Assembly: GCA_017609205.1 (NCBI GenBank)
Contig: JAFCEL010000001.1
Coordinates: 214,183 to 278,182 of the forward strand
DNA: 64,000 bases
Direction: 5' to 3'
Origin: Candidatus Pacearchaeota archaeon
GTDB taxonomy: Archaea; Nanobdellota; Nanobdellia; Pacearchaeales; GW2011-AR1
Of this stretch, positions 3,477 through 39,483 are shown one piece after another. A model generated the notes under the pieces. The model ran no database searches. It saw nothing but the letters and a program-made list of their open reading frames with translations, and had not been told where the DNA came from. The translations under genes and the position numbers were made by a program. How positions within the stretch are numbered: position 1 is the stretch's first letter; the number at the start of each line of letters is the position of its first letter.

Positions 3477-5270
3477 TTATTTTCCAATCTCCCTTAATCT
3501 TTTCAAAACATCATCGATTTCGCTTGATTTTTTTACAGGAGTTTTATGAGGAATTCTCGATGATGGAGGAAGAATCCTTCTCGGAGTTGTTCTCGGATGA
3601 ACAGGTCTCAACATTTGACGCGCAAGTCTTGAACCTGGCTTTCCAGGTTTTGTTTTCTTAAATTTGGACTTAAATTTATCATAATAAGGTTTTAACCTAT
3701 CCCTAAATATTATCGCTAATATAAGAAGAATAATCAGAATAATTAAAAGCCAAATCCACCATAAACTCTTTCCCTCTGAAGAATCTTTTTTCATACAACA
3801 AGAATCCCCATAATCACAAGAGTAAGAAGGATTTTCCTCCTCTCCACTCTCACAAGAATAAGGCCTACAAGTTCCTCCATAAGATTCGCAATCTGCTCCT
3901 GATTTTCCTGAACTTTGCTCACACCTTCCTCCAACACAACAAGACTCTCCGTAAGATGCATCAGAAGATTCAACTGTTGTTCCTCCAAGACATATCTCCT
4001 TGGAACTACATATTTTTCCTCCCTGCTTTGAACAGGACTCAAGAGGAGGTTTAGTATCACAGCACATGAAAACTCCTGAGCAAGAATAATCCTTGAGAAT
4101 ATTCCCTTCGCAATTTATCTCAGGCATACAATAATAACCAGCATCCTCACAATCTAAAGAAGAGGATTTTGAAGAATAAGATTTCTTAGGCCAAAGAGAA
4201 TAAAGAAGAAAAGCATTATTTCTTATGTTGCCTCCGTCCCAGCATCCATCTCTTCCCTGAATCTCCAAAAGCCAGTTTTTTGTATTGCTCTTCTCAACAG
4301 GATCTTCATACTGAAAAGGTAAAAGTGCAACTGCAGAATCATAAAATTTATCTCCTGATTCATCCCAGTATTGATTCTTCTGCTTAAGAAGAATGTTTGC
4401 TCTGAAATCAGAAGAGCCAGTGAGCAAATATAAAAATGCTTCTGGAAGAAATTCTTCATTATCTTCATACATAGTTATAAGATAAGGTAAATAAGAAGAA
4501 ACATCATAACCCAAATGGTCAAGGACTAATGTTGCCCATAAACTTCCTTCATAATCACATCTCCCAGATTCTGAGAAACATTTGAAATCGACTTTTTCAT
4601 AAGTTGTTCCTTCTGCTGAAGCAGAAGAAATTGATTCAGAAACATGAATTGTCGAAGAGGTTTTTTTCTTGTATAAAAAAGTCGTCAAAAATTGCTCGTC
4701 GCAGGATATTTCAAAGGTATAATCATAACATGAAGGAGAAACCTTAAGCCACCAATCACCACTTGATAAGCTCAAACAATTTCCAGCAGAAGAACTTAAT
4801 TTCTTATCTTCTCTTATAGTTATTTTATATGATGCTCCTCCATAACTTATTGTGCATCTTGTTTCAGATGGGCTTTCAATTTCTAAATACCACACAATAT
4901 CTTCAGGCGTAGTATTTTTTGTCAAGAGCCAATTCTCTGCATTTAAAGTAGAAGAACCAGCATTATCAAGAGCTAAAATCGCTTGAGCAGTTGTCTTTAT
5001 TTTACAATCAGATTTTGGCCAACACTCATTCTCATTCCATGCATCAGCCAAAACTTCTTCCTTGCACTTTCCTATTGCAAGAAGAGAGAAAATATTATCT
5101 TCTAAAGAAGATGAACAGTCATCCCCAAGTTTTGATTCAAGACATTTATAAGCATCATCCACTTTTGAAGATTCATCGAGGGGATTTGCAGTTTCATTTT
5201 CTGCAAAAATAAAGGGCATAACTAAAAGTGCAAATAGAAAAACCCCTAATAATAACACCTGCTTTTTCAT
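3477..5270 (-). CDS. surface protein with alpha/alpha-toroid (prenyltransferase/terpene-cyclase-like) repeats, three Cys-rich modules, TM helix and basic tail
   Basis: Signal peptide. Repeated '..A.A.LAL...G' and 'DGCWDGGNIRNNAFLLYSLWP'-type helical repeat motifs. Three C..GG..C....C...CC..(G)xC modules. TM 'LWWIWLLIILIILLILAIIF'. Fold assignment by eye only. Confidence 0.5.
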   Translation of the reverse strand: MKKQVLLLGVFLFALLVMPFIFAENETANPLDESSKVDDAYKCLESKLGDDCSSSLEDNIFSLLAIGKCKEEVLADAWNENECWPKSDCKIKTTAQAILALDNAGSSTLNAENWLLTKNTTPEDIVWYLEIESPSETRCTISYGGASYKITIREDKKLSSSAGNCLSLSSGDWWLKVSPSCYDYTFEISCDEQFLTTFLYKKKTSSTIHVSESISSASAEGTTYEKVDFKCFSESGRCDYEGSLWATLVLDHLGYDVSSYLPYLITMYEDNEEFLPEAFLYLLTGSSDFRANILLKQKNQYWDESGDKFYDSAVALLPFQYEDPVEKSNTKNWLLEIQGRDGCWDGGNIRNNAFLLYSLWPKKSYSSKSSSLDCEDAGYYCMPEINCEGNILKDYSCSGVFMCCDTKPPLESCSKQGGKICSSKEICLGGTTVESSDASYGESCCVGGRCEQSSGKSGADCESYGGTCRPYSCESGEEENPSYSCDYGDSCCMKKDSSEGKSLWWIWLLIILIILLILAIIFRDRLKPYYDKFKSKFKKTKPGKPGSRLARQMLRPVHPRTTPRRILPPSSRIPHKTPVKKSSEIDDVLKRLREIGK

Positions 5271-5304: not shown

Positions 5305-6555
5305 CTATTTCTTTTTATGATTTATCAAACTTTTTTTTATTGTATAATTTACAGGGTTTTTTATTTTAACACAGAATTCATCAGGGGCACAAACACCAAT
5401 TCCTTGATAAAATTCCTTACAGTTTGGAGGCATAAGAGGTTTTCTTTTATAACTCCAAGATAGTTGAGATTTTATATAGCCTTCTTTTAAAGGAATCTTA
5501 TTTTTTTTATTCCATTCATAAATTTTCTTTTCTAATTCTTCTCTCTCCATTCCAACAGAACGTAAGAGATTTATCAAGATAAATACAGCCCTTTTCCTAC
5601 CGTCAGAAATCCCACTTAAAATTTTCTTAATACAAGGTGGAAAATTAGAATCAGATAATTTATCAATTTTTACTGGCCTGAAACCAGAGAATTTTTTTTC
5701 TTCCTGCAAATTATTTTCTCTATACCAATCAAGAGCTTGCATTAAAAGTTCTGATGCTTCTCCTTCTTCTACTCGCGGATAAAAATCTCTTACTTTAACT
5801 TTCATAGGATTTGCATCTTTAGGACTAAATTTCTCCAATTCTTCCTCATCAAGAACAACACTAGAAAGTGCAGTTTTCTCATGAAGAGAATAGGGTGTCC
5901 TAAAGAGATGTCTAGGAGAGACAAGAACCAAATCAGGCATTACTTCTTTAGGAGCCTGGAAATTTTTTACATATCTGCTTGGTTTTTCTAAATCAGAAAT
6001 TTTCTCGATTAATTGTTTTTTCGTCCTTTCAATGATATACCGAGTAATTATCCTGGGATAATCAGGAAATTTTTCAGACGTTTTTATTTCATTTATCTTT
6101 TCAGGAAAAGATTTCCAAGGAATTATTATATGGAATCCTTTTGAACCAGAGAATTTTATCCTGAAATTCTTTATTCTATGAAACTTAAGAAGATTGATTA
6201 TCTCTCTTGCCATAATTTTTGAATAATCAAGATATCGGCTGTCAATATCAATTAACAAATCCCATCCAATCCGCAGTTCATTTGCTTGTTGTTCATTCAT
6301 TCCTGTTTGAATTTGCAAAGGATCAGACCAGAGTTCTTCTGAACAATGGAAAGAGGTTGCTCCTTTTTTCACTAATTCAAAAATATCGCCTTGATATTGA
6401 AAATAATCAGGCCTCTTGCCAAAACCCTCAAAGTAGCGAGGGCAAATTTCGCGATGTTTTGAAAATTCAAAGATTGCCTTTTGAACTTCAGGATTAGAGT
6501 AATAAAGAGAAGTTATCTTTCTTATACGCTGCTCTTTTAGAGAATATTCTGACAT
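5305..6555 (-). CDS. priS: DNA primase, fused catalytic subunit PriS plus PriL C-terminal (Fe-S) domain
   Basis: AEP catalytic core 'WDLLIDIDS' and 'FSGSKGFHIIIPW'. C-terminal 'NFPPCIKKIL...GRKRAVFILINLL' matches the PriL/p58 'FPPC' motif, and three further Cys ('PPNC','GVC','EFC') give four candidate Fe-S ligands. Confidence 0.85.
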   Translation of the reverse strand: MSEYSLKEQRIRKITSLYYSNPEVQKAIFEFSKHREICPRYFEGFGKRPDYFQYQGDIFELVKKGATSFHCSEELWSDPLQIQTGMNEQQANELRIGWDLLIDIDSRYLDYSKIMAREIINLLKFHRIKNFRIKFSGSKGFHIIIPWKSFPEKINEIKTSEKFPDYPRIITRYIIERTKKQLIEKISDLEKPSRYVKNFQAPKEVMPDLVLVSPRHLFRTPYSLHEKTALSSVVLDEEELEKFSPKDANPMKVKVRDFYPRVEEGEASELLMQALDWYRENNLQEEKKFSGFRPVKIDKLSDSNFPPCIKKILSGISDGRKRAVFILINLLRSVGMEREELEKKIYEWNKKNKIPLKEGYIKSQLSWSYKRKPLMPPNCKEFYQGIGVCAPDEFCVKIKNPVNYTIKKSLINHKKK

Positions 6556-6625: not shown

Positions 6626-7375
6626 ATGTCTGATTTTGAGATGTTAGTCAAAATAGAGAATCCTCTCACTTTTACAAAAGTAATTGAGATCATATCTGAG
6701 TTGGTCTCAGAAGTAAGAATGAACTTTAATGAATTTGGAATGAGCATTACAGCTATTGACCCTGCAAATGTTGCAATGGTTGGGTTCAGGATTCCAAAAA
6801 GTTCTTTTTCCCAATTTGAAACAGGAGATGAAGTAATAGGAGTCAATTTAGATAATCTTAAGAAGATTATGAAAAGAACAAATTCTGGAAGTTCTGTTAT
6901 ACTCAAAAAAAGAGAAAATCTTCTTGATATAGAAATTCAAGACAGAATAAAAAGAAAATTCAGTTTAAACCTAATTGATATTGAAAATGAAGAAATTGAT
7001 TTTGAAGAAAAAACATCAAGAATGATGTTTAGTTCAAAAGTTGAACTAAATTCTTCAGATTTTATTGATTCCATCGAAGATTGCATTGTTGTTGCAGATG
7101 CATGTTCTTTTATAATTGAAGAAGGCAAATTTATTATTGAAGCAAAAGAAATGAATTCAGCAAGAGCAGAATTTTCTGATGAAGCATTAATTTCAGGCGA
7201 GAATTGTAAATCAAGATATAGCTTAGAATATCTCTCCAAGTTTACAAAAGCATCAAAACTCTGTGACAAAACAAAGATAAGCCTTGCAAATAATCATCCA
7301 CTTAGGATTGATTTCAAGATTAATGCAATTGAATTAAGTTTTATTCTTGCTCCAAGAGTAGAAACAGAAGATTAA
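6626..7375 (+). CDS. pcn: DNA polymerase sliding clamp PCNA
   Basis: 249 aa, the typical PCNA length. 'GMSITAIDPANVAMVGFRIP', 'GVNLDNLKKIMKR' and C-terminal 'LAPRVE' are characteristic. Divergent from the primase gene. Confidence 0.9.
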   Translation: MSDFEMLVKIENPLTFTKVIEIISELVSEVRMNFNEFGMSITAIDPANVAMVGFRIPKSSFSQFETGDEVIGVNLDNLKKIMKRTNSGSSVILKKRENLLDIEIQDRIKRKFSLNLIDIENEEIDFEEKTSRMMFSSKVELNSSDFIDSIEDCIVVADACSFIIEEGKFIIEAKEMNSARAEFSDEALISGENCKSRYSLEYLSKFTKASKLCDKTKISLANNHPLRIDFKINAIELSFILAPRVETED

Positions 7376-7708: not shown

Positions 7709-7843
7709 ATGAAAGTTAGAATTTCTGCAACAATAGATAAAGAAACCTTAAAAATTGTAAAAGAATTTCTAGAAAAAGGAACATACAGAAATAAATCACA
7801 TGTTATTGAAGAAGCAATTAAATCCTTGAAGAGAAAGAAATGA
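7709..7843 (+). CDS. ribbon-helix-helix (CopG/Arc-like) transcriptional regulator, 44 aa
   Basis: Not in the ORF track (under 60 aa). My translation is MKVRISATIDKETLKIVKEFLEKGTYRNKSHVIEEAIKSLKRKK, a beta-strand, helix, helix pattern typical of RHH proteins. Its TGA overlaps the next ATG (ATGA at 7840-7843). Confidence 0.6.
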   Translation: MKVRISATIDKETLKIVKEFLEKGTYRNKSHVIEEAIKSLKRKK

Positions 7844-8610
7844 AAAGAGGGCAAGCAACAATTTTTATTATTGGAGGAGTAGTCCTAATAAGCTTTCTAG
7901 TTTTCTTCTTTTTATTTAAGGGAAAAATAATACCTCCAAAACTAGGGAGCAAAGAAACAAACCCCAACCTTTTTCTTGAATCATGTATAGAAAAAAAGAC
8001 AAAAGAAGCAATAAAGATAATGGCTCCTCAAGGAGGGTACATTAATCCTGAATTTAGTTTTAAATTTAAATTTAGCGACGGAGATTTCCAGAATATATCT
8101 TATCTTTGTTATACTCAGAATTATTATATTCCCTGTATTAATCAAGAACCAATGTTAATTGAACATTTAAAAAAAGAGATAAAAGATTATATTGCAGAGG
8201 ATGTTGAAAATTGTTTTGATAGTTTTATTTCTGATTTGAAAGAACAGAACTATGAAGTAAATTCATCATATTCTGGATTTGATATTGAATTAGCCCCTAA
8301 AAAAATCTTAGTTAAGATATACGGAGAAATAATCACTGAGAAAACAGGTGAAACATTAAAACGAGAGAATTTTGAGGTAAGGATTCCTACAAAGATTTAT
8401 GATTTAGCAATTGTTGCTCAAGAAATTATCAGCCAAGAAGCAGAATACTGTCATTTTGACCAAGTAGGATTTATGATTCTGAATCCAAAGTTCGAACTTA
8501 ATAAATTCAAGACAGGAGATTCAGATATAATTTATACAATAATAGATAAAGACAGTAAGGAGGAATTTCGATTCGCAGTGAGAAGCTGTGTGATACCACC
8601 AGGAATGTAA
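7840..8610 (+). CDS. prepilin-like (class III signal peptide) Cys-containing protein, paralog A1
   Basis: 'MKRGQATIFIIGGVVLISFLVFFFLF' is a basic stretch, then RGQ, then a hydrophobic helix. Collinear with 12458-13231 (GG.INP, YLCYT..YY..C, F.FA.RS...PPG). Confidence 0.65.
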   Translation: MKRGQATIFIIGGVVLISFLVFFFLFKGKIIPPKLGSKETNPNLFLESCIEKKTKEAIKIMAPQGGYINPEFSFKFKFSDGDFQNISYLCYTQNYYIPCINQEPMLIEHLKKEIKDYIAEDVENCFDSFISDLKEQNYEVNSSYSGFDIELAPKKILVKIYGEIITEKTGETLKRENFEVRIPTKIYDLAIVAQEIISQEAEYCHFDQVGFMILNPKFELNKFKTGDSDIIYTIIDKDSKEEFRFAVRSCVIPPGM

Positions 8611-11600
8611 TGATGAAAAAGAATATTCTTACAACAACAGTCATATTTCAGATTTTCTTATTAGCAATTACAGTTTTCGCAAATAGCTATAATCTTCATT
8701 CAAGTGATTTAATTCCTGTTGTCTCTGCAGAGGATTCGTTCTCCTGTTGCCCAAAAACAAATGATGGAGCAATTTGTCAGGATGTTTCTTCTGATTATTC
8801 TAACTGTGCTGAAGAACTCCTTCCAACAAAATGCGATTATGTTGCAAAATGTAAATTAGGTTGCTGTATCGACGAAAAAGAAGGCTTATGCACAACAAAT
8901 TCTCCAAAAGGAAAATGTGAAGAAGATGGGGGAATCTGGCAAGAGGATAAAAATTGTAACACATTTGAATGTCAAAAAGGTTGTTGCGTATTAGGTGAAA
9001 AGGTTGAGTTCATTACAGAGGATAGATGCAATAAACTATCATTATTATTTGGATTTGATAAGGATTTCAGGGATTTGGAAACAGAATTGGAGTGTTTTGC
9101 ACTCGAAAAAAGCCAACCTGAGGGAGCATGCATATTTAATGGGGGTGTTTGCAAATTTACCACTGAAAGTGAATGCAGAAAACTAGGAGGAAAATTCTCA
9201 GAAGGCAATCTCTGTTCTAAAGAAAGTTTGAATACTATTTGTGAAAGACAAGCATCTATTGGGTGTGTTGAGGGAAAAGATGAAATTTACTGGTTTGACA
9301 GCTGTGGGAATAAAGAGAATATTTACTCTTCTAATAAAGATGCTTCCTGGAACAATGGAGAAGTTCTAAAAAAAGAAGATAGCTGTGGAGCTGGTTCTTC
9401 AAATATTAATTCAAAATCTTGCGGGAATTGTAACTATTTCCTTGGGAGTAAGTGTGCAGAATCTTCATCAGGAAAAGCCAGAGTCGATGATGGAAATTTC
9501 GTCTGTAAAAATCTGAATTGTATTGACGAGAACGGAAAAGAAAGAGTAAATGGAGAAAGTTGGTGTGTTTATGATTCATTCATTGGAGACGGAAAAGATG
9601 CTGTAGGTTCAAGACACTGGAAAAGAATGTGTATTAATGGAGAGATAAAAGTAGAGCCCTGTGCGGATTATCGTGGGCAAATATGCGTCCAGTCGAATAT
9701 AAACGGAACCGGGAGAAACTTCTCAATAGCTGCTTGTGTCATTAATGAAGCAACAAAATGTCTTAGTTATAATTCTAATCAAGACATGGATTCTTGCAGA
9801 AAGAACGAATATTGTGTTGTTAAAGAGATTAATGTAGACTCTGGTTTTCAATTTGATGTATGCGTGGGAAAATACCCAAAGGGTTTTGACCTGACAGGAG
9901 AGGAATATCTAGAATCGCGGGATATGTGTGGAATAGCGAGCCAAAAATGCGAAGTGCTTTATGTAAAAGATTGGAAAGGGCACTGGAAATGCAAAAAGAA
10001 CTGCAACTGCGAGAGTGAAGAATTTTCAAAGCAAATGAATGATTTGTGTATTTCTCTCGGAGATTGTGGAAGTTACATTAATTATATTGGGGATGGAACA
10101 GACAATTCAGATGTGGAAAATGCTCCTGAAATACCGTGGCAGGATTACAAAAAATTCGCAGAGCCAGTAAAAGGGTTATATGCAGAAGCAAAGGATATAG
10201 AAGAAGTCTTAGAGGTAATTAAAAAAGATTATAGAAAAGATTCTAATGCCAAAGGACAAGAGAAGAATAGTTTTGCAGAAGGAATAAAATTGCTCGGAAC
10301 AATATCAAGTTCCACAGGAAGTCTAATTAGTGGGTTGGCATGGGCTGGAGGATCAGTAAAAATTATTGGGGCAGGACAAACAATACCTTCAGGAGCCCAA
10401 GTTTTAGGAGGGAGTGTGGTTACTGGTCCTGCAGGAGGATCTTCCTTAGTTGCTGGAGAAGGAGGAACATTAGTTGCTACTAAAGGCGCAATAGGAGGTC
10501 AGGGATTGGTTGGAACAACACTCGGTTCTGTAGGGGCTGCTGCAGGGGGAATTGGGATTGGAATGACTGTTGGGTCTTTCGCTGCAAAAGCATTTGGAAT
10601 TAAAGGAAATGCTGCAACATTCTTATCATTAGCAGGGGGAATAGCAGGGGGAATAGCTGGATATGGTGCATTTGCATATAGTGCTGCTTCAACAGCAGCA
10701 GGGGGAGGAGCTGCAGGAGCAGCAGCAGGCTCTAGTGCAGCAGGAGGATTAGGAGGAATCTCTACTTTCGGAGGTTCTTCACTCTTCACAGGATCTTTCG
10801 GACCCATGATGGCAGCATTTGCATGGGCTGTGATTGTTGTTGTCGTCCTAGCAGTTGTTATAAAAATCATTGGTTGGGGGGACACAAAGATAGTCACTGT
10901 TCAATTTGAATGCATGCCATGGGAAGCACCCTTAGGAGGGGATAATTGTAATAAATGCAATGACGATCCCTTGAAACCTTGTTCCAAATATAGATGTGAA
11001 AGCTTAGGACAGGCATGTATATTATTAAATGAAGACACTGAAAATCCTGTTTGTGAAAGCTTGCCAAAAGAAGACAATCCCCCAGTAATTTCTACTGGCG
11101 AGATTCTCGATGATCTCACATTTCTCAATACAGGAGAATCAAAAACAGAGATAAGTGAAATCGGAAAAAAGTGTATTACAGAATTCAAACCTGTTTTGTT
11201 CTCCTTAAATACCGACGAATATGCACAATGCAAGTATAGTTTTGAAAAAACAAAAAATTACGACGAAATGGAGCAATTCCCTCTTGAACAAAATAAATTC
11301 TCAAAGAATCATACATTTGCTTTTTCAATACCAAGTGTTGATAGCCTCAATACTTACAACACTATCAAAAATATCAGTGAAATGTTTTCAGAAATGAATA
11401 TGTATATTAGATGCCAAGATGTTCATGGGAATTATAACAAAGACGAATATACTGTTCATTTCTGCATTAATTCAGGACCAGATATAACCCCTCCTATTCT
11501 CGTTGCTACAAACCCAAAACATAATTCTTATGTCAAATATGGAACAAAAGAAATTCCGGCTGAAATATATCTCAATGAACCATCAGATTGCAAATATGAT

Positions 11601-12413
11601 ACTAGAGATGTAAGTTATGAAGCAATGTCCCATAATATGACTTGCTTTACAGAACTATTGCAACTTACTGACTTTGGCTGGAAATGCTCTACAACATTAA
11701 AAGGTTTCGATAAGGAAGAGAATAAATTTTATATTAGATGCAAAGACCAACCATGGCTTGTCAATGATTCTGTAAAGATAGTAAATGAAAAAACAAATGA
11801 AACAACTTATAAAACAAGAAACGTGAATACAGAAAGTTTTATTTTTACATTGAAAAGTTCATTAAACAAACTAAATATCACCTCCATCTCCCCAAAAGGA
11901 GAGATTAGTGGGGGTTTTGAACCAATAACTGTTGATCTAGAAGTTAAAACTTCTGGAGGCGCAAACAATGGAGAAGCAACATGTTACTACAAATTTTCAG
12001 AGAATGAAACAGAAACATTATTTTTTGATACTTTCTCTAATATTCACAAACAAACATTTAACAGCATGATGAGTGGGAATTATAAAATTTGGGTCAGATG
12101 CGAAGATGATGCAGGAAATATCGCAGAAGATACAACAGAATTTGAATTAAATCTCGATACAAAACCCCCAATAGTTGTGAGAGTGTATTCTGAAGACGGG
12201 AAAATTAGGTTAATAACAAATGAGGAAGCAGAATGTTATTATGATTTTGATAGATGTAATTTTAATTTTGAAAATGCAAGTTCAATGACAAATTTCTTTT
12301 CAAAAGAGCACAAAATAGAAAAAATCTCAGGACAAACCTATTATGTAAAATGTAAAGATATCTGGGGTAATTATGGAAATGGTTGTAGTATCATTATAAA
12401 GACCTTTAGCTAG
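8610..12413 (+). CDS. giant secreted Cys-rich protein B1: Cys-rich N-domain, Gly/Ala-rich hydrophobic region, four C-terminal repeat modules
   Basis: 1267 aa with a Sec-type signal peptide. The N-terminal ~500 aa are collinear with 13232-14701, with matching Cys spacing. Residues 563-757 are Gly/Ala/hydrophobic. The C-terminus has four repeats ending in '(Y/F)xxC.D..GN'. Confidence 0.75.
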   Translation: MMKKNILTTTVIFQIFLLAITVFANSYNLHSSDLIPVVSAEDSFSCCPKTNDGAICQDVSSDYSNCAEELLPTKCDYVAKCKLGCCIDEKEGLCTTNSPKGKCEEDGGIWQEDKNCNTFECQKGCCVLGEKVEFITEDRCNKLSLLFGFDKDFRDLETELECFALEKSQPEGACIFNGGVCKFTTESECRKLGGKFSEGNLCSKESLNTICERQASIGCVEGKDEIYWFDSCGNKENIYSSNKDASWNNGEVLKKEDSCGAGSSNINSKSCGNCNYFLGSKCAESSSGKARVDDGNFVCKNLNCIDENGKERVNGESWCVYDSFIGDGKDAVGSRHWKRMCINGEIKVEPCADYRGQICVQSNINGTGRNFSIAACVINEATKCLSYNSNQDMDSCRKNEYCVVKEINVDSGFQFDVCVGKYPKGFDLTGEEYLESRDMCGIASQKCEVLYVKDWKGHWKCKKNCNCESEEFSKQMNDLCISLGDCGSYINYIGDGTDNSDVENAPEIPWQDYKKFAEPVKGLYAEAKDIEEVLEVIKKDYRKDSNAKGQEKNSFAEGIKLLGTISSSTGSLISGLAWAGGSVKIIGAGQTIPSGAQVLGGSVVTGPAGGSSLVAGEGGTLVATKGAIGGQGLVGTTLGSVGAAAGGIGIGMTVGSFAAKAFGIKGNAATFLSLAGGIAGGIAGYGAFAYSAASTAAGGGAAGAAAGSSAAGGLGGISTFGGSSLFTGSFGPMMAAFAWAVIVVVVLAVVIKIIGWGDTKIVTVQFECMPWEAPLGGDNCNKCNDDPLKPCSKYRCESLGQACILLNEDTENPVCESLPKEDNPPVISTGEILDDLTFLNTGESKTEISEIGKKCITEFKPVLFSLNTDEYAQCKYSFEKTKNYDEMEQFPLEQNKFSKNHTFAFSIPSVDSLNTYNTIKNISEMFSEMNMYIRCQDVHGNYNKDEYTVHFCINSGPDITPPILVATNPKHNSYVKYGTKEIPAEIYLNEPSDCKYDTRDVSYEAMSHNMTCFTELLQLTDFGWKCSTTLKGFDKEENKFYIRCKDQPWLVNDSVKIVNEKTNETTYKTRNVNTESFIFTLKSSLNKLNITSISPKGEISGGFEPITVDLEVKTSGGANNGEATCYYKFSENETETLFFDTFSNIHKQTFNSMMSGNYKIWVRCEDDAGNIAEDTTEFELNLDTKPPIVVRVYSEDGKIRLITNEEAECYYDFDRCNFNFENASSMTNFFSKEHKIEKISGQTYYVKCKDIWGNYGNGCSIIIKTFS

Positions 12414-12457: not shown

Positions 12458-13231
12458 ATGACAAATAAAAGAGGACAAATAACTATTTTCATCATTATTG
12501 GAATAATAATTGTAGGTCTTGCTATTGTCATTTACCTTGTGTTCCCTCAAATAAAAACAAAGATAGGATTATCTTCAAAGAACCCTTCTTCTTTTATGCA
12601 GGCATGTATGGAGGATTCAATAAAAGAAACCGTAAAAACAATCTCTTCTAATGGAGGGAGTATTAACCCAAAAAACTATGTGTTGTATAACAATAATAAA
12701 ATAGAATATTTATGTTACACTAATGAATATTACAAAACATGTGTTGTTCAAAGACCCCTTCTTAAAAGACATATTGAAGAAGAAATAGAAAAAGAAATAA
12801 AAGACGAAGCAAAAAATTGCCTTGATAAACTAAAAGAAAATTATGAGAGTAGAGGATATAATGTGAACATAAAAGATGGGAATATTGATGTTGAATTGCT
12901 GCCTGAGATTATTGCAGTAAATTTTAATAATAGTGTTGTTCTTACAAAAGACCCCTCTGAAAAATATGATCTTCTAAGAATTTCTGTCAAAAATAATCTT
13001 TATGAGCTGATTAGTATTGCAAACAGTATAATTCAATGGGAAGCAAGTTATGGCGATGCTGAAACAACAACATACATGAATTATTATCATGATTTAAAAG
13101 TTGAAAAGAAAAAACAATCAGACGGAACAACAATATATATCTTAACTAACAGAAATACAGGAGATAAATTTCAATTTGCATCAAGGAGTTTAGCATGGCC
13201 TCCTGGTTATGGTGCAGAAGGAGTTGCTTAA
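12458..13231 (+). CDS. prepilin-like (class III signal peptide) protein, paralog A2
   Basis: 'MTNKRGQITIFIIIGIIIVGLAIVIYLVF'. Collinear with A1. Confidence 0.65.
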   Translation: MTNKRGQITIFIIIGIIIVGLAIVIYLVFPQIKTKIGLSSKNPSSFMQACMEDSIKETVKTISSNGGSINPKNYVLYNNNKIEYLCYTNEYYKTCVVQRPLLKRHIEEEIEKEIKDEAKNCLDKLKENYESRGYNVNIKDGNIDVELLPEIIAVNFNNSVVLTKDPSEKYDLLRISVKNNLYELISIANSIIQWEASYGDAETTTYMNYYHDLKVEKKKQSDGTTIYILTNRNTGDKFQFASRSLAWPPGYGAEGVA

Positions 13232-14701
13232 ATGAATGAGAAGATTTTAATCTTGTTTGTAGGAATCTTATTAGTTGCAACATTCGTTAGTGCAGAGACA
13301 TCATATTGCTGCGAGAGATTAATCTCAGGGGCATGGTGTCAGAATGCTCCAGAAAGCAGTTGTGACAATAATTATAGGGTTGTTCCTACTTCTTGTGAAT
13401 CCACTTCTTATTGCAAATTAGGAACATGCATTGACAGTGAAGAAGGAACCTGTATAGAGAATACACCTCAGAAAGTTTGTGAAGATTCTAAAGGAGTTTG
13501 GTATGATAAAGATAGTGATGAAGTTCCCCAATGTAACTTGGGTTGTTGTATTCTAGGAGATCAAGCAGCATTTGTTACAAAAACAAGATGTAAAAGATTA
13601 TCCTCGTTGTATGGTCTTGAAACAAATTTCCGGGATGATATTAATGGGGAATTTCAGTGTATTGCAAGCGCGACTTCAGAAGTAAAAGGGGCATGTGTTT
13701 TTGATAGAGAATATGAAAGAACATGCTTAATTCTAACAAAAAAAGAATGTGCTGAGATGCAGATAGCAAATAAAACAGAATTCTATGAAGGAAGATTATG
13801 TTCTGACGAGACTCTTAACACAAATTGCGGACCTTCTGAAAAAACAACATGTGTTGAGGGAAAAGATGAAGTTTATTTCTTAGATACTTGCGGAAATATC
13901 GCGAATATATATGATGCTTCAAAAATAAATGACAAAGAATATTGGGCAAAGATTAAAGATAAATCAGAGAGTTGTAATTATGGTTCTTCAAACGCCAATT
14001 CTGCAACATGTGGAAATTGTGACTATTATCTTGGAAGCACTTGTAAAGATTATAAATTAAATAAGGGGAATAGAAAACCCACTTATGGAACAAATGTTTG
14101 CCAAGACTTAAGCTGTGAATATAATGGGAAAAAATATGAGCATGGAGAAACATGGTGTGCAGAGAGCAAAGGTTCAGAAGACAATCTTCCTGGTTCAAGA
14201 TATTTTAGAATGATATGTTACAATGGAGAAGTAAGTGTTGAACCTTGCGCTGATTTCAGACAAGAGATTTGTATTGAATCAGAAATCGAAGGATTCAGTA
14301 CTGCTGCATGCAGAGTTAACAGATGGCAAGATTGTGTTTCACAAGGAAATTCAAAAGACTGCGAAAATGAAGACAGAAGAGACTGTATTTGGTTGGGAAA
14401 AGGACAGGGATGTGTTCCAAAATATGCCCCTGGATTTAATTTTTGGGAAAGTGGGGATGCTGAATCAATATGTTCGCAAGCAAATATGGAGTGCGAGGTT
14501 GTTTATGAAAAAACATTGGGAGGAGATAAAAAATGTGTGAGTGGATGCGAATGTATTTCAGATTCATGGAAAAGCAAGATGAATCAAATGTGTGTTTCTC
14601 TCGGAGATTGTGGAAGCAGTACAAATTACATTGGAATAAAAGGATATCACGACGAGAATGCTGTTTACTCTGGCACTGCAGATAAAGAAGATAAAGAGTA
14701 A
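13232..14701 (+). CDS. secreted Cys-rich protein B2 (paralog of the B1 N-terminal domain)
   Basis: Signal peptide 'ILILFVGILLVATFVSA|E'. I count about 43 Cys in 489 aa, at positions collinear with B1. The ATG directly follows the A2 stop (TAAATG). Confidence 0.75.
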   Translation: MNEKILILFVGILLVATFVSAETSYCCERLISGAWCQNAPESSCDNNYRVVPTSCESTSYCKLGTCIDSEEGTCIENTPQKVCEDSKGVWYDKDSDEVPQCNLGCCILGDQAAFVTKTRCKRLSSLYGLETNFRDDINGEFQCIASATSEVKGACVFDREYERTCLILTKKECAEMQIANKTEFYEGRLCSDETLNTNCGPSEKTTCVEGKDEVYFLDTCGNIANIYDASKINDKEYWAKIKDKSESCNYGSSNANSATCGNCDYYLGSTCKDYKLNKGNRKPTYGTNVCQDLSCEYNGKKYEHGETWCAESKGSEDNLPGSRYFRMICYNGEVSVEPCADFRQEICIESEIEGFSTAACRVNRWQDCVSQGNSKDCENEDRRDCIWLGKGQGCVPKYAPGFNFWESGDAESICSQANMECEVVYEKTLGGDKKCVSGCECISDSWKSKMNQMCVSLGDCGSSTNYIGIKGYHDENAVYSGTADKEDKE

Positions 14702-14713
14702 TTTAAGTTAAGA

Positions 14714-14721
14714 TTTATAAG
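14714..14721 (+). promoter_or_regulatory. candidate internal TATA box (TTTATAAG), leaderless-type spacing to ATG 14743
   Basis: TATA-like element 22 nt upstream of the ATG. Confidence 0.35.
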
Positions 14722-14742
14722 TTAAAGTTTTCTTTTATATAA

Positions 14743-15234
14743 ATGAAAAAAAAGGGGCAAATGAAATTATCTTTTGGGATGATTTTTACTATTATCCTCA
14801 TTGTCGCGTTTATGGCCTTTGCATTTTATGCTATACAGAAGTTTCTAGGAATGCAGAGAACACTTGAAGTAGGAAGTTTTGCAAGTACTTTCCAAGAAGA
14901 CATTAACAGAATGTGGAAAAGTTCCGAAGGATCCCAGGAAAAAGAATATTATCTTCCAAAAAGAATAGAAAAAGTCTGCATAATTGACTATAGTTCTAAT
15001 TTAAGAGGAAAAAACAAAGAGATTGGAGATAAATTAAAACAAGTCTTTTATGAAAAAGAGAATATATTCTTCTACCCTCTTGGTTCTGCAGAAGGGCTTG
15101 ATGCTTTAGCGATTGAACATCTCGACTTAAAAGAAATAACAAAAGAAGAGAATCCATTCTGTATTGAGAATTCTGGAAAAATAAAAGTAATAATAAAAAA
15201 AGATTATGAAAACTCTCTTGTAATAATAAAATGA
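14743..15234 (+). CDS. prepilin-like protein C
   Basis: 'MKKKGQMKLSFGMIFTIILIVAFMAFAFYAI' is a class III-type N-terminus. Two Cys in the mature part. Confidence 0.6.
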   Translation: MKKKGQMKLSFGMIFTIILIVAFMAFAFYAIQKFLGMQRTLEVGSFASTFQEDINRMWKSSEGSQEKEYYLPKRIEKVCIIDYSSNLRGKNKEIGDKLKQVFYEKENIFFYPLGSAEGLDALAIEHLDLKEITKEENPFCIENSGKIKVIIKKDYENSLVIIK

Positions 15235-16151
15235 ATAAGGGCTATCTTGATTTTTCATTTGCGACGATTTTTGCGATTATTGCAGGTATTTTCATTTTAG
15301 GTCTTGCTATTTATGGTTCGACAAGACTATTAAAGACAGAACAAGAAGTCCAGGATGTAAAAACAGGAAAAGAAATCGGAATCTTATTGAACCCCCTTGA
15401 AATAGGATATGAAACAGGAAAAGTCACTTCTTTTTCTATTCCTGCAGACACAAGAATTTACAATAATTGCAAAGAAGAAGGTGTTTTTGGAAGACAACTC
15501 ATTAAAATATCTCAAAAAAGTTTTGGTAAATGGACTGAAACAGACTTGAACGTTAGTTTTGAGAATAAATATATTTTCTCGAAAAGGCCTGTTGAAGGAA
15601 AAGAATTCTACTTATTCTCAAAACCATTTGAATTTCCATTTAAAGTCAGTGACCTGATTTACATGACTTCTGCGAAAGATTCTTATTGTTTTGTGAACCC
15701 CCCAGAAGAAGTTAGAGGTGAATTATCTTCATTAAACCAGAAGAATATTTTTCTAGATAATTGTTCAGAAGAGAGTACAATAATTTGCTTTAATGAATTT
15801 GAAGACTGCGACGTAAAAATCAATTATGAAGAGGGTTATTTAAAAAAGAATAATAACGTTCTTTATTTCAAAGGAGATGCCTTAATGTATGCAGGTGTTT
15901 TTTCTGATGCTGGGAGTTATGAGTGTCAATTAAAGAGATTAATGAAAAGAGTGGGAGTATTAGCCCAAGTTTACTCTGATAAAGCTAATTTTGTCTCAAG
16001 AAGAGGATGTAATTCAAATTTAAATGAAGATTTGCTTAGATTAATTAACTTTTGCAATAATTTCAAAGATTCATCAGAGATAAAATTAGTTGCCAAGATT
16101 TCAGAGGAAATACAAAATAAAAATAAATTTGCAGAGTGTAAATTATGGTAA
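15231..16151 (+). CDS. prepilin-like Cys-rich protein D
   Basis: 'MNKGYLDFSFATIFAIIAGIFILGLAIYG'. ATGA overlap with C. About 10 Cys. Confidence 0.6.
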   Translation: MNKGYLDFSFATIFAIIAGIFILGLAIYGSTRLLKTEQEVQDVKTGKEIGILLNPLEIGYETGKVTSFSIPADTRIYNNCKEEGVFGRQLIKISQKSFGKWTETDLNVSFENKYIFSKRPVEGKEFYLFSKPFEFPFKVSDLIYMTSAKDSYCFVNPPEEVRGELSSLNQKNIFLDNCSEESTIICFNEFEDCDVKINYEEGYLKKNNNVLYFKGDALMYAGVFSDAGSYECQLKRLMKRVGVLAQVYSDKANFVSRRGCNSNLNEDLLRLINFCNNFKDSSEIKLVAKISEEIQNKNKFAECKLW

Positions 16152-16675
16152 AGGAAAAATCAATCCGAGCACAAGTAAAAATCCAACAGATGCTTTTCAT
16201 GCTATTAGCAATAACTTTATTTTTTGTACTTGTTGGAATTTTCTTGATTGTTATTGGTTTTTCAGGGTTGAAGGAATCTGCCATTGAATTGCAAGAAAAA
16301 AATTCACTCTTATTAGTTACTAAACTTGCCAACTCACCTGAATTCTCGTGTGGCGAATCATTTGGAAGCAATAAAATAAATTGTATCGACGGAGATAAAA
16401 TTATGATGCTAAAAGAGAACAGTGAAAAATACAAGAATTTTTGGGGAGTATCCAATATTGAAATAAGAAAAATTTATCCAGAAACTGATGGAAAGAAAGA
16501 ATGCACAATTAATAACTATCCTGAATGTAATATTATGAAAATTTACTCAAAAGAAAGTTTGGGTGTAGATGTCTCAAATTTTGTAACATTATGCAGGAAA
16601 GAATTATCATTGGGGGGCGGTAGTTATGACAAATGTGAGATCGCTAAAATGATTGTTCGTTATGAATTAGAATGA
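16145..16675 (+). CDS. prepilin-like/signal-anchored Cys-containing protein E
   Basis: '..IRAQVKIQQMLFMLLAITLFFVLVGIFLIVIGF'. 7-nt overlap with D. Paired Cys ('FSCGESFGSNKINC', 'KECTINNYPEC'). Confidence 0.5.
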   Translation: MVKEKSIRAQVKIQQMLFMLLAITLFFVLVGIFLIVIGFSGLKESAIELQEKNSLLLVTKLANSPEFSCGESFGSNKINCIDGDKIMMLKENSEKYKNFWGVSNIEIRKIYPETDGKKECTINNYPECNIMKIYSKESLGVDVSNFVTLCRKELSLGGGSYDKCEIAKMIVRYELE

Positions 16676-17154
16676 AAAACAAAAAAGGACAGGAAGAATT
16701 CGTAGGTTTTGGTCTGATAATAATAGTCGTAGCAGTAATATTATTGATTTTTCTAAGTTTTGTTCTTAAAAAAAATTCACAAAAAGAGTATGTTGAAAGT
16801 TATGAAGTTGAAAGTTTTATACAATCAGCTCTTCAATATACTACAGACTGCGAAGACAATCTTGAATTTCTGTCAATCCAAAAAGTTATCTTCAGTTGTA
16901 TTGACAAAGAAACTTGTTTAGATAAAAGAAGTAGCTGTGATGTATTAAATGAAACCTTAAAAGAAATTGTTGAAAAAAGTTGGAGAGTTGAAAAAGGAAG
17001 TACAATCCAAGGATATAAAATGCAGATTATAGATGGCGAGCAAGAAATTATTAGTATAAAGAAAGGGAATGAAACAAAGAATAATAAAGGTTCTAAACAA
17101 CATTTTAGCAGAGGGGGTAATGAAGTAGAAATCTCTTTTACTGTATATTATTAA
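16672..17154 (+). CDS. prepilin-like protein F
   Basis: 'MKNKKGQEEFVGFGLIIIVVAVILLIFLSF'. ATGA overlap with E. Cys cluster 'FSCIDKETCLDKRSSC'. Confidence 0.6.
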   Translation: MKNKKGQEEFVGFGLIIIVVAVILLIFLSFVLKKNSQKEYVESYEVESFIQSALQYTTDCEDNLEFLSIQKVIFSCIDKETCLDKRSSCDVLNETLKEIVEKSWRVEKGSTIQGYKMQIIDGEQEIISIKKGNETKNNKGSKQHFSRGGNEVEISFTVYY

Positions 17155-39343: not shown

Positions 39344-39356
39344 GGATTTATATAAA

Positions 39357-39451
39357 CGCCGCCGCCAGGAATCGAACCTGGATGCCCAAAAGGGCCCCGG
39401 TTTCTCGAAGAGAGACTCAAGCCGGGTGCAGTACCATTGTGCCACGGCGGC
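39357..39451 (-). tRNA. tRNA-Ser (anticodon UGA) with a 14-nt intron at 37/38
   Basis: Reverse complement folds as acceptor GCCGCCG/CGGCGGC, anticodon stem CCCGG/CCGGG, loop CTTGAG|intron|A, long variable arm GCCC-TTTT-GGGC, T-arm CCAGG-TTCGATT-CCTGG, discriminator G. Confidence 0.8.
39402..39415 (-). other. tRNA intron (TCTCTCTTCGAGAA) at the canonical 37/38 position
   Basis: 21 nt lie between the two halves of the anticodon stem; removing 14 nt restores a 7-nt loop. Confidence 0.65.
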
Positions 39452-39483
39452 ATATTTATAAAACCAATCAAGAAGTTTTAAAA

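What the first reader, a model, noticed from the sequence alone, without database searches (positions are those of the whole stretch)
8610..12413. 1267-aa protein joining a ~500-aa Cys-rich ectodomain, a ~195-aa Gly/Ala 'glycine-zipper'-like hydrophobic region and four C-terminal repeat modules
Seen in sequence:
- After a Sec signal and the Cys-rich domain, residues 563-757 (nt 10296-10880) are almost entirely G/A/S/T/I/V/L. Examples are GGIGIGMTVGSFAAKAFGI, LSLAGGIAGGIAGYGAFAYSAAS and AAFAWAVIVVVVLAVVIKIIGWG. GxxxG/AxxxG spacing recurs, and this stretch is locally much more G+C-rich than its flanks.
- The region after the last hydrophobic helix is Cys-rich again: CMPWEAPLGGDNCNKCNDDPLKPCSKYRCESLGQAC.
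- Four tandem modules follow. Each has an early 'x-C-[KY]-Y' and ends '(Y/F)-x-[IVK]-[RK]-C-x-D-x-x-G-N': MYIRCQDVHGN, FYIRCKDQPW, IWVRCEDDAGN, YYVKCKDIWGN. Modules are separated by PP(I) linkers.

Inference:
- Both Cys-rich halves should be extracytoplasmic, so the Gly/Ala region must cross the membrane an even number of times or be re-entrant.
- Glycine-zipper segments are known from pore-forming and oligomerising membrane proteins. A membrane-embedded oligomer with two large ectodomains is therefore plausible, and could be a cell-cell contact or channel component.
Basis: partly seen in the sequence, partly recalled or inferred. Interest (0 to 1): 0.7.

Follow-up and report, generated by a model that had tools for sequence, protein, structure and literature searches.

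The report
DPANN membrane-anchored two-lobed surface protein
This gene encodes a real, widely conserved but uncharacterised cell-surface protein of tiny symbiotic (DPANN) archaea: a novel cysteine-rich head and a four-domain Ig-like stalk, both outside the cell and joined by a glycine-rich membrane anchor, in an operon with pilin-like proteins next to the S-layer gene, which makes it a candidate part of their unknown attachment machinery.

Summary
The 1267-aa ORF (8610-12413, +) is real and uninterrupted. It is the founding-type member of a large DPANN-only family: 431 relatives in GTDB species genomes and 1,234 clusters at 50% identity. It matches no Pfam, NCBIfam, PHROG or PDB sequence family.

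Anatomy:
- a signal helix
- a ~480-aa, 45-Cys domain (AF2 pLDDT 89) with no fold match in PDB or BFVD
- a charged linker
- a Gly/Ala hydrophobic region with four segments: weak H1, a conserved glycine-zipper hairpin H2-H3, and strong TM H4
- a 7-Cys knot
- four homologous Ig-like modules

- Intact natural variants lack any TM between the halves, so both halves share the exported compartment.
- Four hydrophobic segments is the modal count.
- The C-half has exported-type composition.
- Cys counts are odd+odd in 86% of fused proteins, which suggests one inter-half disulfide.

Context is new. The gene sits in a translationally coupled operon with six class-III-signal (pilin-like) proteins and a second paralogous module, beside the S-layer gene.

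Function is inferred, not shown: a membrane-anchored attachment or envelope complex. The pore/channel idea remains untested.

The parts
8610..12413 (+). Whole ORF, 1267 aa: fused N-domain plus C-half surface protein (module 1 of the operon).
   Evidence: The identical protein is on two independent assemblies. More than 900 homologues were found.
8610..8729 (+). N-terminal signal/anchor helix (residues 6-24) plus a spacer ending in the conserved V-S-A (residues 38-40).
   Evidence: KD 2.29 and dG -0.97. AF2 helix 3-31 followed by disorder at 32-41. The QIxLL...SY motif is shared with the N-termini of free C-half proteins. Whether it is cleaved by a Sec-type or a class III peptidase is not resolved.
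8730..10109 (+). Cys-rich N-domain (residues 41-500, 45 Cys), a novel fold.
   Evidence: AF2 pLDDT 89.4. No PDB match (best E 0.22) and no BFVD match. All Cys are at least 95% conserved, and the variable ones are lost in pairs. It is 39% identical to the 489-aa ORF at 13232..14701.
10110..10286 (+). Charged K/E-rich linker (residues 501-559) carrying the conserved AP..SW..Y..Y..PV.GQ motif.
10287..10358 (+). H1: weak hydrophobic segment (residues 560-583), family motif LGTISGxxG, specific to the fused family.
   Evidence: dG +4.6. Present in about half of homologues at KD >= 1.3. Low-confidence coil in AF2.
10521..10694 (+). H2 (residues 638-661), a short K-containing loop, and H3 (residues 667-695): glycine-zipper helical hairpin.
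   Evidence: AF2 helices at pLDDT 54-68. dG +4.1 and +3.6. In-register conserved GxxxGxxxG. Homologous to Ha-Hb of free C-half proteins.
10800..10871 (+). H4: strong transmembrane helix (residues 731-754), followed by GWG-D/K-TK.
   Evidence: KD 2.99 and dG -3.6. AF2 helix. It lies 10-21 residues before CxPW across the family.
10899..11099 (+). Seven-Cys knot: F.C.PW.AP.GG..C.KCN.D.LKPC..YRC.SLGQAC...NE..ENP.C.
   Evidence: Every Cys is 100% conserved. pLDDT above 90. Also conserved in free C-half paralogues.
11115..12410 (+). Four homologous Ig-like beta-sandwich modules: residues 836-958, 959-1085, 1086-1186 and 1187-1267. They carry 14 invariant Cys.
   Evidence: hhalign between modules. 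AF2 pLDDT above 90 and all-beta. Foldseek matches to Ig/FN3/cadherin ectodomain arrays down to E 1.9e-13. Sub-threshold Big_13 hit in module 3.
7709..7843 (+). 44-aa ribbon-helix-helix-like ORF that overlaps the start of the next gene by 4 nt. Candidate operon regulator.
   Evidence: Weak RHH_1 hit on the orthologue in L004.
7840..8610 (+). 256-aa pilin-like partner (MKRG|QATIFIIGG...) whose stop overlaps the target's start codon.
   Evidence: Found in 77 of 81 related loci directly upstream of each N/C module. The [KR]GQ + hydrophobic N-terminus is conserved and there are 4 invariant Cys.
12458..14701 (+). Module 2: 257-aa pilin-like paralogue (12458-13231) plus a 489-aa secreted N-domain paralogue (13232-14701). 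The free C-half gene found in many other genomes is absent here.
14743..17154 (+). Four small overlapping genes (163, 306, 176 and 160 aa) with class-III-type signal peptides.
   Evidence: [KR][GA]Q/Y lies directly before the hydrophobic stretch in all orthologues. Overlaps of 4-7 nt.
17861..20515 (+). 884-aa putative S-layer protein, the conserved downstream neighbour.
   Evidence: Weak S_layer_C hit. Synteny.

Best explanation
The ORF encodes the membrane-anchored core subunit of a DPANN-specific cell-envelope complex.

Proposed mechanism:
1. After export through Sec, a disulfide-rich head of novel fold (residues 41-500) lies outside the cytoplasmic membrane.
2. A disulfide-rich stalk (7-Cys knot plus four Ig-like domains, residues 764-1267) also lies outside.
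3. The intervening Gly/Ala region forms the anchor. It most likely has four helices: weak H1, the conserved glycine-zipper hairpin H2-H3, and strong H4. These enter and leave the membrane on the outer side.
4. Head and stalk are probably tied together by one inter-half disulfide.
5. The protein is made in fixed proportion with a ~260-aa pilin-like partner, a second paralogous head (and, in most genomes, a second stalk), and four small pilin-like proteins.
6. Together these build a surface structure that reaches into or through the S-layer and serves for attachment to hosts or particles, or for envelope architecture.

Shown here: the anatomy, conservation, operon, the two halves sharing one compartment, and the Ig-like fold.
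Inferred: the helix count, the inter-half disulfide, co-assembly with the pilin-like proteins, and the adhesive role.
For: Family and conservation:
- More than 900 homologues; 431 relatives in GTDB species genomes; the loci listed are DPANN or unclassified archaea apart from one labelled bacterium; 1,234 clusters at 50% identity.

Same compartment for both halves:
- Intact zero-TM fused variants exist, consisting of signal peptide, N-domain, soluble linker and C-half. They include P0086, which is on at least 24 contigs in the module-2 position.
- The modal number of hydrophobic segments is 4 (75 of 163).

Exported character of the C-half:
- Composition score is +0.037 to +0.084, against a cytoplasmic maximum of -0.003 (n = 37).
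- Cys content is 4.1%, against 1.9% or less in cytoplasmic proteins.

Disulfides:
- All 66 Cys are at least 95% conserved.
- Variable Cys are lost in pairs.
- Counts change in steps of two, and both halves are odd in 118 of 138 fused proteins.

Folds:
- N-domain pLDDT 89 with no PDB or viral match.
- The C-half is a tandem Ig/FN3/cadherin-like array resembling adhesion-molecule ectodomains.

Anchor:
- H2-H3 hairpin and H4 helix in AF2.
- Conserved in-register Gly zipper.
- Homologous hairpin in free C-half proteins.

Operon:
- The pilin-like partner is in 77 of 81 loci.
- The canonical order is conserved and lies next to the S-layer gene.
- Class-III-type N-termini.
- Overlapping start and stop codons.
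Against: - AF2 gives only three confident-looking helices, and H1 is low-confidence coil.
- On the translocon scale only H4 is an unambiguous TM.
- Residues just after H4 are slightly basic (K+R 2.5-2.7 vs D+E 1.8-1.9), as expected of a stop-transfer with a cytoplasmic C-side.
- A few family members show a single hydrophobic segment (6 of 163).
- The pilin-like proteins match no pilin HMM.
- No pilus ATPase, platform protein or prepilin peptidase lies in the 64-kb window.
- No experimental or proteomic evidence exists for the family.
Confidence: 0.55

Rival explanations
1. It is a receptor-like protein with an odd number of crossings. The N-domain is outside, the H2-H3 hairpin plus H4 (or H4 alone) spans the membrane, and the knot plus Ig-like array is cytoplasmic, for example as part of an intracellular basal structure. 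In this reading the conserved Cys bind metal.
For: - AF2 shows three helices.
- Only H4 has a negative insertion energy.
- There is a slight excess of K/R after H4.
- The knot contains CxxC...Cx4C spacing that could bind zinc.
- Titin-type intracellular Ig arrays are also among the Foldseek matches.
Against: - Zero-TM fused variants place both halves behind one signal peptide.
- Every C-half sub-domain has exported-type composition.
- Cys counts change by twos and are odd in each half.
- Module 3 has only 2 Cys, too few for a metal site.
- In free C-half proteins the residues after the last TM are net neutral (K+R 2.26 vs D+E 2.37), and acidic in the L002 copy (ETEE).
- The secreted N-only paralogues need an external docking partner.
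Confidence: 0.1
2. It is a pore-former or fusogen. The Gly/Ala hairpins oligomerise into a channel, or insert into the host membrane like a fusion peptide or translocator, creating the cytoplasmic bridges seen between DPANN cells and their hosts.
For: - Conserved glycine-zipper hairpin.
- The marginally hydrophobic helices (dG +3.6 to +4.6) are of the kind that can switch between soluble and inserted states (own knowledge).
- The Gly/Ala-rich hydrophobic composition resembles class I viral fusion peptides (own knowledge, not tested).
- The proteins of DPANN attachment organelles and cytoplasmic bridges are unknown.
Against: - No structural similarity of the head to any viral or cellular fusogen.
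- No Pfam glycine-zipper or pilin-hairpin family matches.
- The hydrophobic region is dispensable in intact paralogues.
- Outside H2-H4 it is poorly conserved.
- H4 would be retained in the producer's own membrane.
- No oligomer prediction could be run.
Confidence: 0.12
3. It is a purely structural envelope component. It would act as a membrane-anchored stalk or spacer that supports or positions the S-layer, analogous in role to SlaB of Sulfolobales, with no direct role in host contact or in pilus-like filaments.
For: - Conserved adjacency to the S-layer gene.
- A membrane anchor plus a beta-sandwich stalk about four domains long.
- Near-universal presence across Pace- and Woesearchaeota-type genomes, as expected of a housekeeping envelope part.
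Against: - The tight, translationally coupled association is with six class-III-signal proteins rather than with the S-layer gene. The S-layer gene is 706 nt away, beyond an oppositely oriented regulator gene.
- The duplicated and variably fused, split or TM-less second module suggests diversification typical of interaction proteins.
Confidence: 0.2
4. It is an artefactual fusion of two genes, produced by a frameshift or assembly join in the Gly-rich stretch.
For: - In other genomes, N-domain-only and C-half-only genes exist as separate ORFs.
Against: - The identical 1267-aa protein occurs on independent assemblies.
- Most of the 120 best homologues are full-length fusions.
- 50-76 fused ORFs are present in species-representative genomes, usually as module 1 beside a separate module 2.
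Confidence: 0.01

Closest known systems
Minor-pilin / large-adhesin modules of type IV filament systems. Bacterial examples are PilY1 with minor pilins and the modular pilin PilB of Streptococcus sanguinis. An archaeal example is TFF 'system 1' with many pilins and accessory proteins.
   Same: - Several small proteins with class-III-type signal peptides are encoded together with a very large, multi-domain, adhesin-like extracellular protein.
- DPANN are reported to carry TFF system 1, with diverse pilins and accessory proteins (preprint 10.64898/2026.04.22.720090).
   Different: - No sequence or HMM relationship to any pilin or PilY1 family.
- No ATPase, platform protein or peptidase in the neighbourhood.
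- The large protein has its own internal hydrophobic hairpins, which are incompatible with extraction into a filament.
- The locus is duplicated in tandem.
Glycine-zipper membrane proteins (the GxxxGxxxG helix-packing motif; Pfam Gly-zipper_Omp, Gly-zipper_YMGG and Rick_17kDa_Anti families).
   Same: - A conserved in-register G-x3-G-x3-G in H3 and a related stripe in H2.
- The two helices are predicted to form a tight helical hairpin.
   Different: - No HMM match at E <= 1.
- Most of the 195-aa Gly/Ala region is low-complexity and variable in length, with motif counts at chance level.
- The region is embedded between two large ectodomains rather than forming a small stand-alone protein.
Tandem Ig/FN3/cadherin-like ectodomain arrays of surface adhesins: Bap, RTX adhesins, cadherins, PTP-delta/NCAM; and the Pfam Big_13 domain.
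   Same: - Four consecutive beta-sandwich domains with short Pro-containing linkers.
- Foldseek E down to 1.9e-13.
- Module 3 gives a Big_13 hit at 21.4 bits.
   Different: - The resemblance is at fold level only (7-12% identity).
- The Big_13 score is below the gathering threshold of 27.
- Each module carries invariant Cys pairs and the family-specific C-[KY]-Y ... [RK]-C-x-D-x-x-G-N signature.
- The array follows a unique 7-Cys knot.
SlaB-type membrane-anchored S-layer stalk of Sulfolobales (own knowledge; SlaA/SlaB are mentioned in PMC11329633).
   Same: - A membrane-anchored beta-sandwich stalk.
- It is encoded next to the S-layer protein gene.
   Different: - No homology.
- The anchor is internal and multi-helical, not a single C-terminal TM.
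- There is an additional large Cys-rich head and there are pilin-like partners.
Cys-rich membrane fusogens (HAP2/fusexins, viral class I/II fusion proteins).
   Same: - A large disulfide-rich ectodomain followed by hydrophobic, Gly/Ala-rich segments and TM helices.
- It occurs in organisms that form cytoplasmic bridges with their hosts.
   Different: - The N-domain model matches no fusogen in PDB or BFVD (best E 0.22 and 0.011; TM-scores normalised to the query (TMq) below 0.1 and at most 0.12 on either normalisation for the best-ranked hits).
- No PHROG or viral-contig relatives.

Membership tests
Glycine-zipper membrane protein families (Pfam Gly-zipper_Omp / YMGG / Rick_17kDa_Anti) | Significant match to a family HMM. 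| tested here: not met
   Residues 563-757 scanned alone against Pfam at E <= 1 gave 0 families.
Glycine-zipper membrane protein families (Pfam Gly-zipper_Omp / YMGG / Rick_17kDa_Anti) | A GxxxGxxxG motif conserved in register within a hydrophobic helix, and more frequent than composition predicts. | tested here: inconclusive
   The motif is conserved in register in H3 and partly in H2 across 50 fused orthologues. Counts over the whole region equal the shuffled expectation.
Archaeal type IV pilins / type IV filament (TFF) locus (applies to the operon partners and, loosely, to the target's N-terminus) | A class III signal peptide: basic residue(s), G/A at -1, then about 20 hydrophobic residues. 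| tested here: met
   [KR][GA]-Q/Y lies immediately before the hydrophobic stretch in all orthologues of the 256/257-, 163-, 306-, 176- and 160-aa proteins, whatever the leader length. For the target itself the motif is degenerate (KKN-ILTTT...) and a V-S-A site follows, so its status is ambiguous.
Archaeal type IV pilins / type IV filament (TFF) locus (applies to the operon partners and, loosely, to the target's N-terminus) | A match to pilin HMMs (Pilin_N, Class_IIIsignal, archaellin). | tested here: not met
   71 orthologues were scanned. There was one weak Pilin_N hit (E 0.036) and nothing else relevant. NCBIfam gave none.
Archaeal type IV pilins / type IV filament (TFF) locus (applies to the operon partners and, loosely, to the target's N-terminus) | Linkage to an assembly ATPase, a platform protein and a prepilin peptidase. 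| tested here: not met
   None is present in the 64-kb window or within +/-10 kb in six examined loci. Presence elsewhere in the genomes could not be tested.
Bacterial Ig-like domain Big_13 (PF19077) | An HMM score at or above the gathering threshold (27 bits). | tested here: not met
   Module 3 scores 21.4 bits (E 3.6e-4). The other modules give no hit. There is a faint Big_13 hit on the 712-aa paralogue.
Bacterial Ig-like domain Big_13 (PF19077) | A beta-sandwich Ig-like fold in tandem array. | tested here: met
   The AF2 model is all-beta with pLDDT above 90. Foldseek gives 606 PDB matches at E <= 1e-3, and the 50 best listed are almost all arrays of Ig/FN3/cadherin-type beta-sandwich domains.
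Membrane fusogens (class I/II viral, HAP2/fusexin) | Structural similarity of the ectodomain to a known fusogen fold. | tested here: not met
   The N-domain model has no match at E <= 1e-3 in PDB or BFVD.
VirB2/TrbC-type conjugative pilin hairpin | An HMM match, and a stand-alone two-helix protein. | tested here: not met
   No Pfam match for residues 563-757. The hairpin is embedded in a 1267-aa protein. The resemblance (two Gly/Ala helices joined by a short basic loop) is recalled from memory only.
Archaeal S-layer proteins | An S-layer domain HMM match (e.g. S_layer_C). | tested here: not met
   The target has no such hit. Only the neighbouring 884-aa protein has a weak S_layer_C hit.

The most novel reading that the evidence does not exclude
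The operon encodes a DPANN-specific, envelope-spanning host-contact machine whose parts have never been identified. The two-lobed Cys-rich proteins would form the membrane-embedded base or portal, and the pilin-like proteins would form the filament. The conserved glycine-zipper hairpins would oligomerise into, or insert as, the conduit or fusogenic element that opens the cytoplasmic bridge to the host.
Probability: 0.12. Interest if true: 0.9.

Novelty: new variant of a known kind. Interest (0 to 1): 0.6.

Why it matters
DPANN archaea are ubiquitous, mostly uncultured and depend on physical contact with hosts. The proteins that build their attachment structures are explicitly unknown (bioRxiv 10.1101/2024.05.04.592509), and most DPANN-specific membrane or extracellular families lack any annotation (PMC8204110).

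This work defines one such family and makes it testable:
- It is found in 431 stretches of GTDB species-representative genomes, essentially all from DPANN archaea.
- It has a defined domain map, including a head domain of apparently novel fold.
- It has a supported topology.
- It sits in a conserved ten-gene operon with pilin-like partners beside the S-layer gene.

This gives concrete targets for antibodies, metaproteomics, AF-multimer modelling and cryo-ET in the cultures now appearing. It also gives a marker locus for comparing host-interaction repertoires across Pace- and Woesearchaeota.

Tried and rejected
1. Pfam, NCBIfam and PHROGs scans on the whole protein, on eight sub-regions and on the neighbours gave nothing significant.
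2. A PDB sequence-profile search gave nothing.
3. A viral-contig scan found no relatives.
4. Positive-inside charge statistics around H2, H3 and H4, in both the fused and the free families, gave contradictory or near-neutral values and were dropped as a topology test.
5. N-glycosylation sequon enrichment matched expectation everywhere and was uninformative.
6. Short 'C-half only' representatives of 500-620 aa, considered as possible signal-anchor variants, proved to be 5'-truncated fragments.
7. A C-terminal GG.LGF tail on N-only proteins occurs in only 3 of 29 and was dropped.
8. My first sub-range alignments (A1, A2) were mis-anchored by MAFFT and were replaced by A3 to A5.
9. Reading the target's N-terminal helix as a class III signal peptide is tempting because its motif is shared with free C-half proteins. 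However, many members also have a V/A-x-A Sec-type site, so the question is left open.
10. Literature searches for any description of the family or operon found none.

Full report
OBSERVATION

The window is about 31% GC and archaeal: it has PCNA, a fused PriS/PriL primase, ribosomal operons and SecY. The exact protein is recorded on independent JGI/NCBI contigs of 55-57 kb and 511 kb.

Regional composition matches the description:
- residues 41-500 hold 45 Cys (10%);
- residues 563-757 are G26/A19/S11/I8/V8/T7/L6 % with no Cys;
- residues 758-1267 hold 21 Cys.

The local GC rise to 0.47-0.49 is real and follows from Gly and Ala codons. The four C-terminal modules are true homologous repeats (hhalign probability 73-97%).

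Two details of the observation are weaker. Over the whole Gly/Ala region, GxxxG and small-xxx-small counts equal those of shuffled sequence. A PP linker is also missing before module 3.

A REAL, LARGE, UNANNOTATED FAMILY

- A word-indexed search found 903 homologues. Most of the 120 best listed are 1150-1400 aa and cover 96-100% of the query. Those that carry a name are labelled Pacearchaeota, Nanoarchaeota or simply archaeon, all 'hypothetical' apart from one evidently spurious transporter annotation, and none has a Pfam domain.
- An exhaustive HMMER search with the C-half alone found 1,234 clusters at 50% identity with E <= 1e-30. Lengths are bimodal at about 1100-1350 and 670-930 aa, and the C-half is always C-terminal.
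- GTDB species genomes contain 431 relatives. The 78 loci listed are labelled Pace-, Woese- or Nanoarchaeota or unclassified archaeon, with one Aenigmatarchaeota, one Iainarchaeum and one (L062) labelled 'bacterium'.
- There are no relatives in viral contigs or PHROGs.
- The artefactual-fusion hypothesis is therefore refuted.

ANATOMY

In an alignment of 114 members, the N-domain, the post-TM motif (F.C.PW.AP.GG..C.KCN.D.LKPC..YRC.SLGQAC) and the modules are strongly conserved. The Gly/Ala region is conserved mainly in composition and varies in length. All 66 Cys are at least 95% conserved, and the few variable ones are lost in perfect pairs: 85/116, 271/274 and 461/465.

AlphaFold2 with family alignments gave two models:
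- Residues 1-526 fold with high confidence (pLDDT 89.4). Foldseek finds nothing comparable in PDB (best E 0.22) or BFVD, so this is an apparently novel fold.
- Residues 461-1267 form a knot and four beta-sandwich modules at pLDDT above 90. Helices lie at 638-661 (H2), 667-695 (H3) and 731-754 (H4) at pLDDT 54-75, with disordered Gly/Ala loops.

The C-half matches tandem Ig/FN3/cadherin ectodomain arrays at fold level only (E down to 1.9e-13, 7-12% identity). Module 3 gives a sub-threshold Big_13 hit. No PDB sequence relative exists.

Family-wide, the hydrophobic region has up to four segments:
- H1, weak, with the motif LGTISGxxG;
- the H2-loop-H3 hairpin;
- H4, a strong TM 10-21 residues before CxPW.

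H3 carries an in-register conserved G-x3-G-x3-G, and H2 carries G-x4-G-x3-G-x3-[GAS]. A glycine zipper is therefore real in the hairpin but not across the whole region.

CONTEXT

The gene lies in a conserved, tightly packed operon. In order:
1. a 44-aa RHH-like ORF;
2. a 256-aa protein;
3. the target;
4. a 257-aa paralogue of the 256-aa protein (30% identity);
5. a 489-aa secreted paralogue of the N-domain (39% identity, E 3e-95);
6. four small overlapping genes (163, 306, 176 and 160 aa);
7. an oppositely oriented HTH gene;
8. the putative S-layer gene.

Gene junctions are -4, -1, +44, 0, +41, -4, -7 and -4 nt, which implies co-translation. The ~260-aa partner precedes each N/C module in 77 of 81 loci.

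All six small proteins and their orthologues begin with [K/R]-[G/A]-Q/Y directly followed by about 20 hydrophobic residues, whatever the leader length. This is the class III (prepilin-peptidase) signal pattern. None matches a pilin HMM, and no pilus ATPase, platform protein or peptidase is nearby.

In most genomes the second module also contains a C-half, in one of three forms:
- a separate 640-930-aa protein with its own N-terminal helix, a variable linker, a homologous hairpin plus TM, the knot and four modules (31% identity to the target, E 2e-88);
- fused to its N-domain;
- fused without any TM (below).

The window's organism lacks a second C-half.

Tests that did not decide the question:
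- AF2 shows three helices.
- The translocon scale gives H4 -3.6 but H1-H3 +3.6 to +4.6 kcal/mol. That is the upper edge of the real TM helices in the window's own SecY.
- Charge bias is contradictory between the paralogous families.

Four independent lines favour an extracytoplasmic C-half:
1. Among 163 distinct fused proteins the number of hydrophobic segments between the halves is 0 (5), 1 (6), 2 (15), 3 (48), 4 (75) or 5 (14). The zero-segment proteins are intact. Each has a Sec signal peptide, a full N-domain, a soluble 87-162-aa linker, no other hydrophobic peak (KD19 <= 1.29) and a complete C-half. P0086 is carried by at least 24 contigs in the module-2 position. There the two halves must share one compartment, and the N-domain is exported.
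2. Four segments is the modal count.
3. With Cys excluded, every C-half sub-domain scores +0.037 to +0.084 on a composition log-ratio. All 37 cytoplasmic proteins of the window score -0.003 or less (leave-one-out), and exported ones range from -0.04 to +0.16. Cys content is 4.1% against 1.9% or less.
4. Cys counts vary between family members in steps of two: N-part 39, 41, 43, 45, 47...; C-part 19, 21, 23, 25. Both parts are odd in 118 of 138 fused proteins. Free C-half proteins have exactly 21 Cys downstream of the TM in 19 of 19 cases. This is the signature of disulfide pairs plus one Cys per half left over, most simply an inter-half disulfide.

I therefore put about 0.85 on both halves being outside. 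The anchor would then cross an even number of times, most likely as H1-H4.

MECHANISM (INFERRED)

The protein is a membrane-anchored two-lobed surface subunit: a novel head plus an Ig-like stalk about four domains long. It is stabilised by about 33 disulfides and made in fixed proportion with pilin-like partners and a second head/stalk set. Together they would form an attachment or envelope structure at the S-layer.

The hydrophobic region acts primarily as an anchor. Intact paralogues dispense with it, which argues against it being the catalytic or conductive heart of the system. The conserved zipper hairpin may mediate helix packing with the N-terminal helices of the pilin-like partners.

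Rivals:
- cytoplasmic C-half (0.10);
- pore or fusogen (0.12);
- purely structural S-layer stalk (0.20);
- artefact (0.01).

COMPARISON AND NOVELTY

The protein works like, but is not a member of, the following:
- type IV filament minor-pilin/adhesin modules;
- glycine-zipper proteins;
- Ig-array adhesins;
- SlaB-type stalks.

Every family-defining HMM test failed, and the head fold is unmatched. No paper in the searchable library describes the family. One paper notes that DPANN-specific membrane and extracellular families are unannotated, and another that the proteins of attachment organelles are unknown.

I rate it a new variant of a known kind: a surface adhesion or envelope complex associated with pilin-like proteins. 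Interest is 0.6. There is a 0.12 chance that it is the core of a genuinely new host-contact machine.

Noticed in passing
window 1948..3369 (-) and 3477..5270 (-): Two signal-peptide proteins of 473 and 597 aa with no significant family match. The 597-aa one has 30 Cys (5%). They are syntenic with the operon, upstream of primase and PCNA, in 26 and 35 of 81 related loci. They may belong to the same surface system.
   Followed up: partly
window 5305..6555 (-): A 416-aa protein combining DNA_primase_S and DNA_primase_lrg hits. It is a fused PriS-PriL primase, next to PCNA (6626..7375), and is conserved immediately upstream of the surface operon.
   Followed up: no
window 7709..7843 (+): A 44-aa ribbon-helix-helix-like ORF (MKVRISATIDKETLKIVKEFLEKG...) that overlaps the first operon gene by 4 nt. 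The orthologue in L004 has a weak RHH_1 hit. It is a possible autoregulator of the operon.
   Followed up: partly
window 13232..14743: This organism lacks the second C-half gene. The 489-aa N-domain paralogue is followed after 41 nt by the 163-aa gene, whereas most related loci have N plus C (split or fused) at this position. The partner of the orphan secreted head is unclear.
   Followed up: partly
window 39356..39452 (-): A 97-nt tRNA (Rfam 46.5 bits) that ARAGORN reports with a four-base 'anticodon' ctct. It is probably an intron-containing archaeal tRNA.
   Followed up: no
window 757..1434 (+) and 23065..24732 (-): Further exported proteins: a 225-aa lamin-tail-domain (LTD) protein, and a 555-aa CARDB + fn3_6 protein. 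The latter is adjacent to an unannotated 171-aa polytopic membrane protein (22520..23035, -) and a VTT/DedA protein.
   Followed up: no
window 61344..62330 (+): A Glycos_transf_4 protein (E 6.5e-28) of AglH/GPT type. It is a candidate initiating enzyme for N-glycosylation of surface proteins.
   Followed up: no
L062 (JAUUWR010000018.1): A contig labelled 'MAG: bacterium' carries PCNA plus the complete archaeal operon start. It is probably a mis-binned or mis-labelled DPANN contig.
   Followed up: no
L025 83-2329 / P0126; P0226; L005 18594-21386: Unusual family variants:
- One fused protein has the Gly/Ala region replaced by a Trp/Tyr-rich stretch with a single aromatic TM.
- One has exactly two strong TMs.
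- One free C-half has a ~400-aa Pro-rich insertion after its N-terminal helix.
The single-TM cases (6 of 163) do not fit the even-crossing model and remain unexplained.
   Followed up: partly
L084 4514-8524 and 10001-13840: In the GW2011_AR13-like lineage both modules are fused proteins (1336 and 1279 aa), and the second lacks any TM. The locus there is flanked by MacB/FtsX genes rather than primase and PCNA, so the operon's neighbourhood is not universal.
   Followed up: partly
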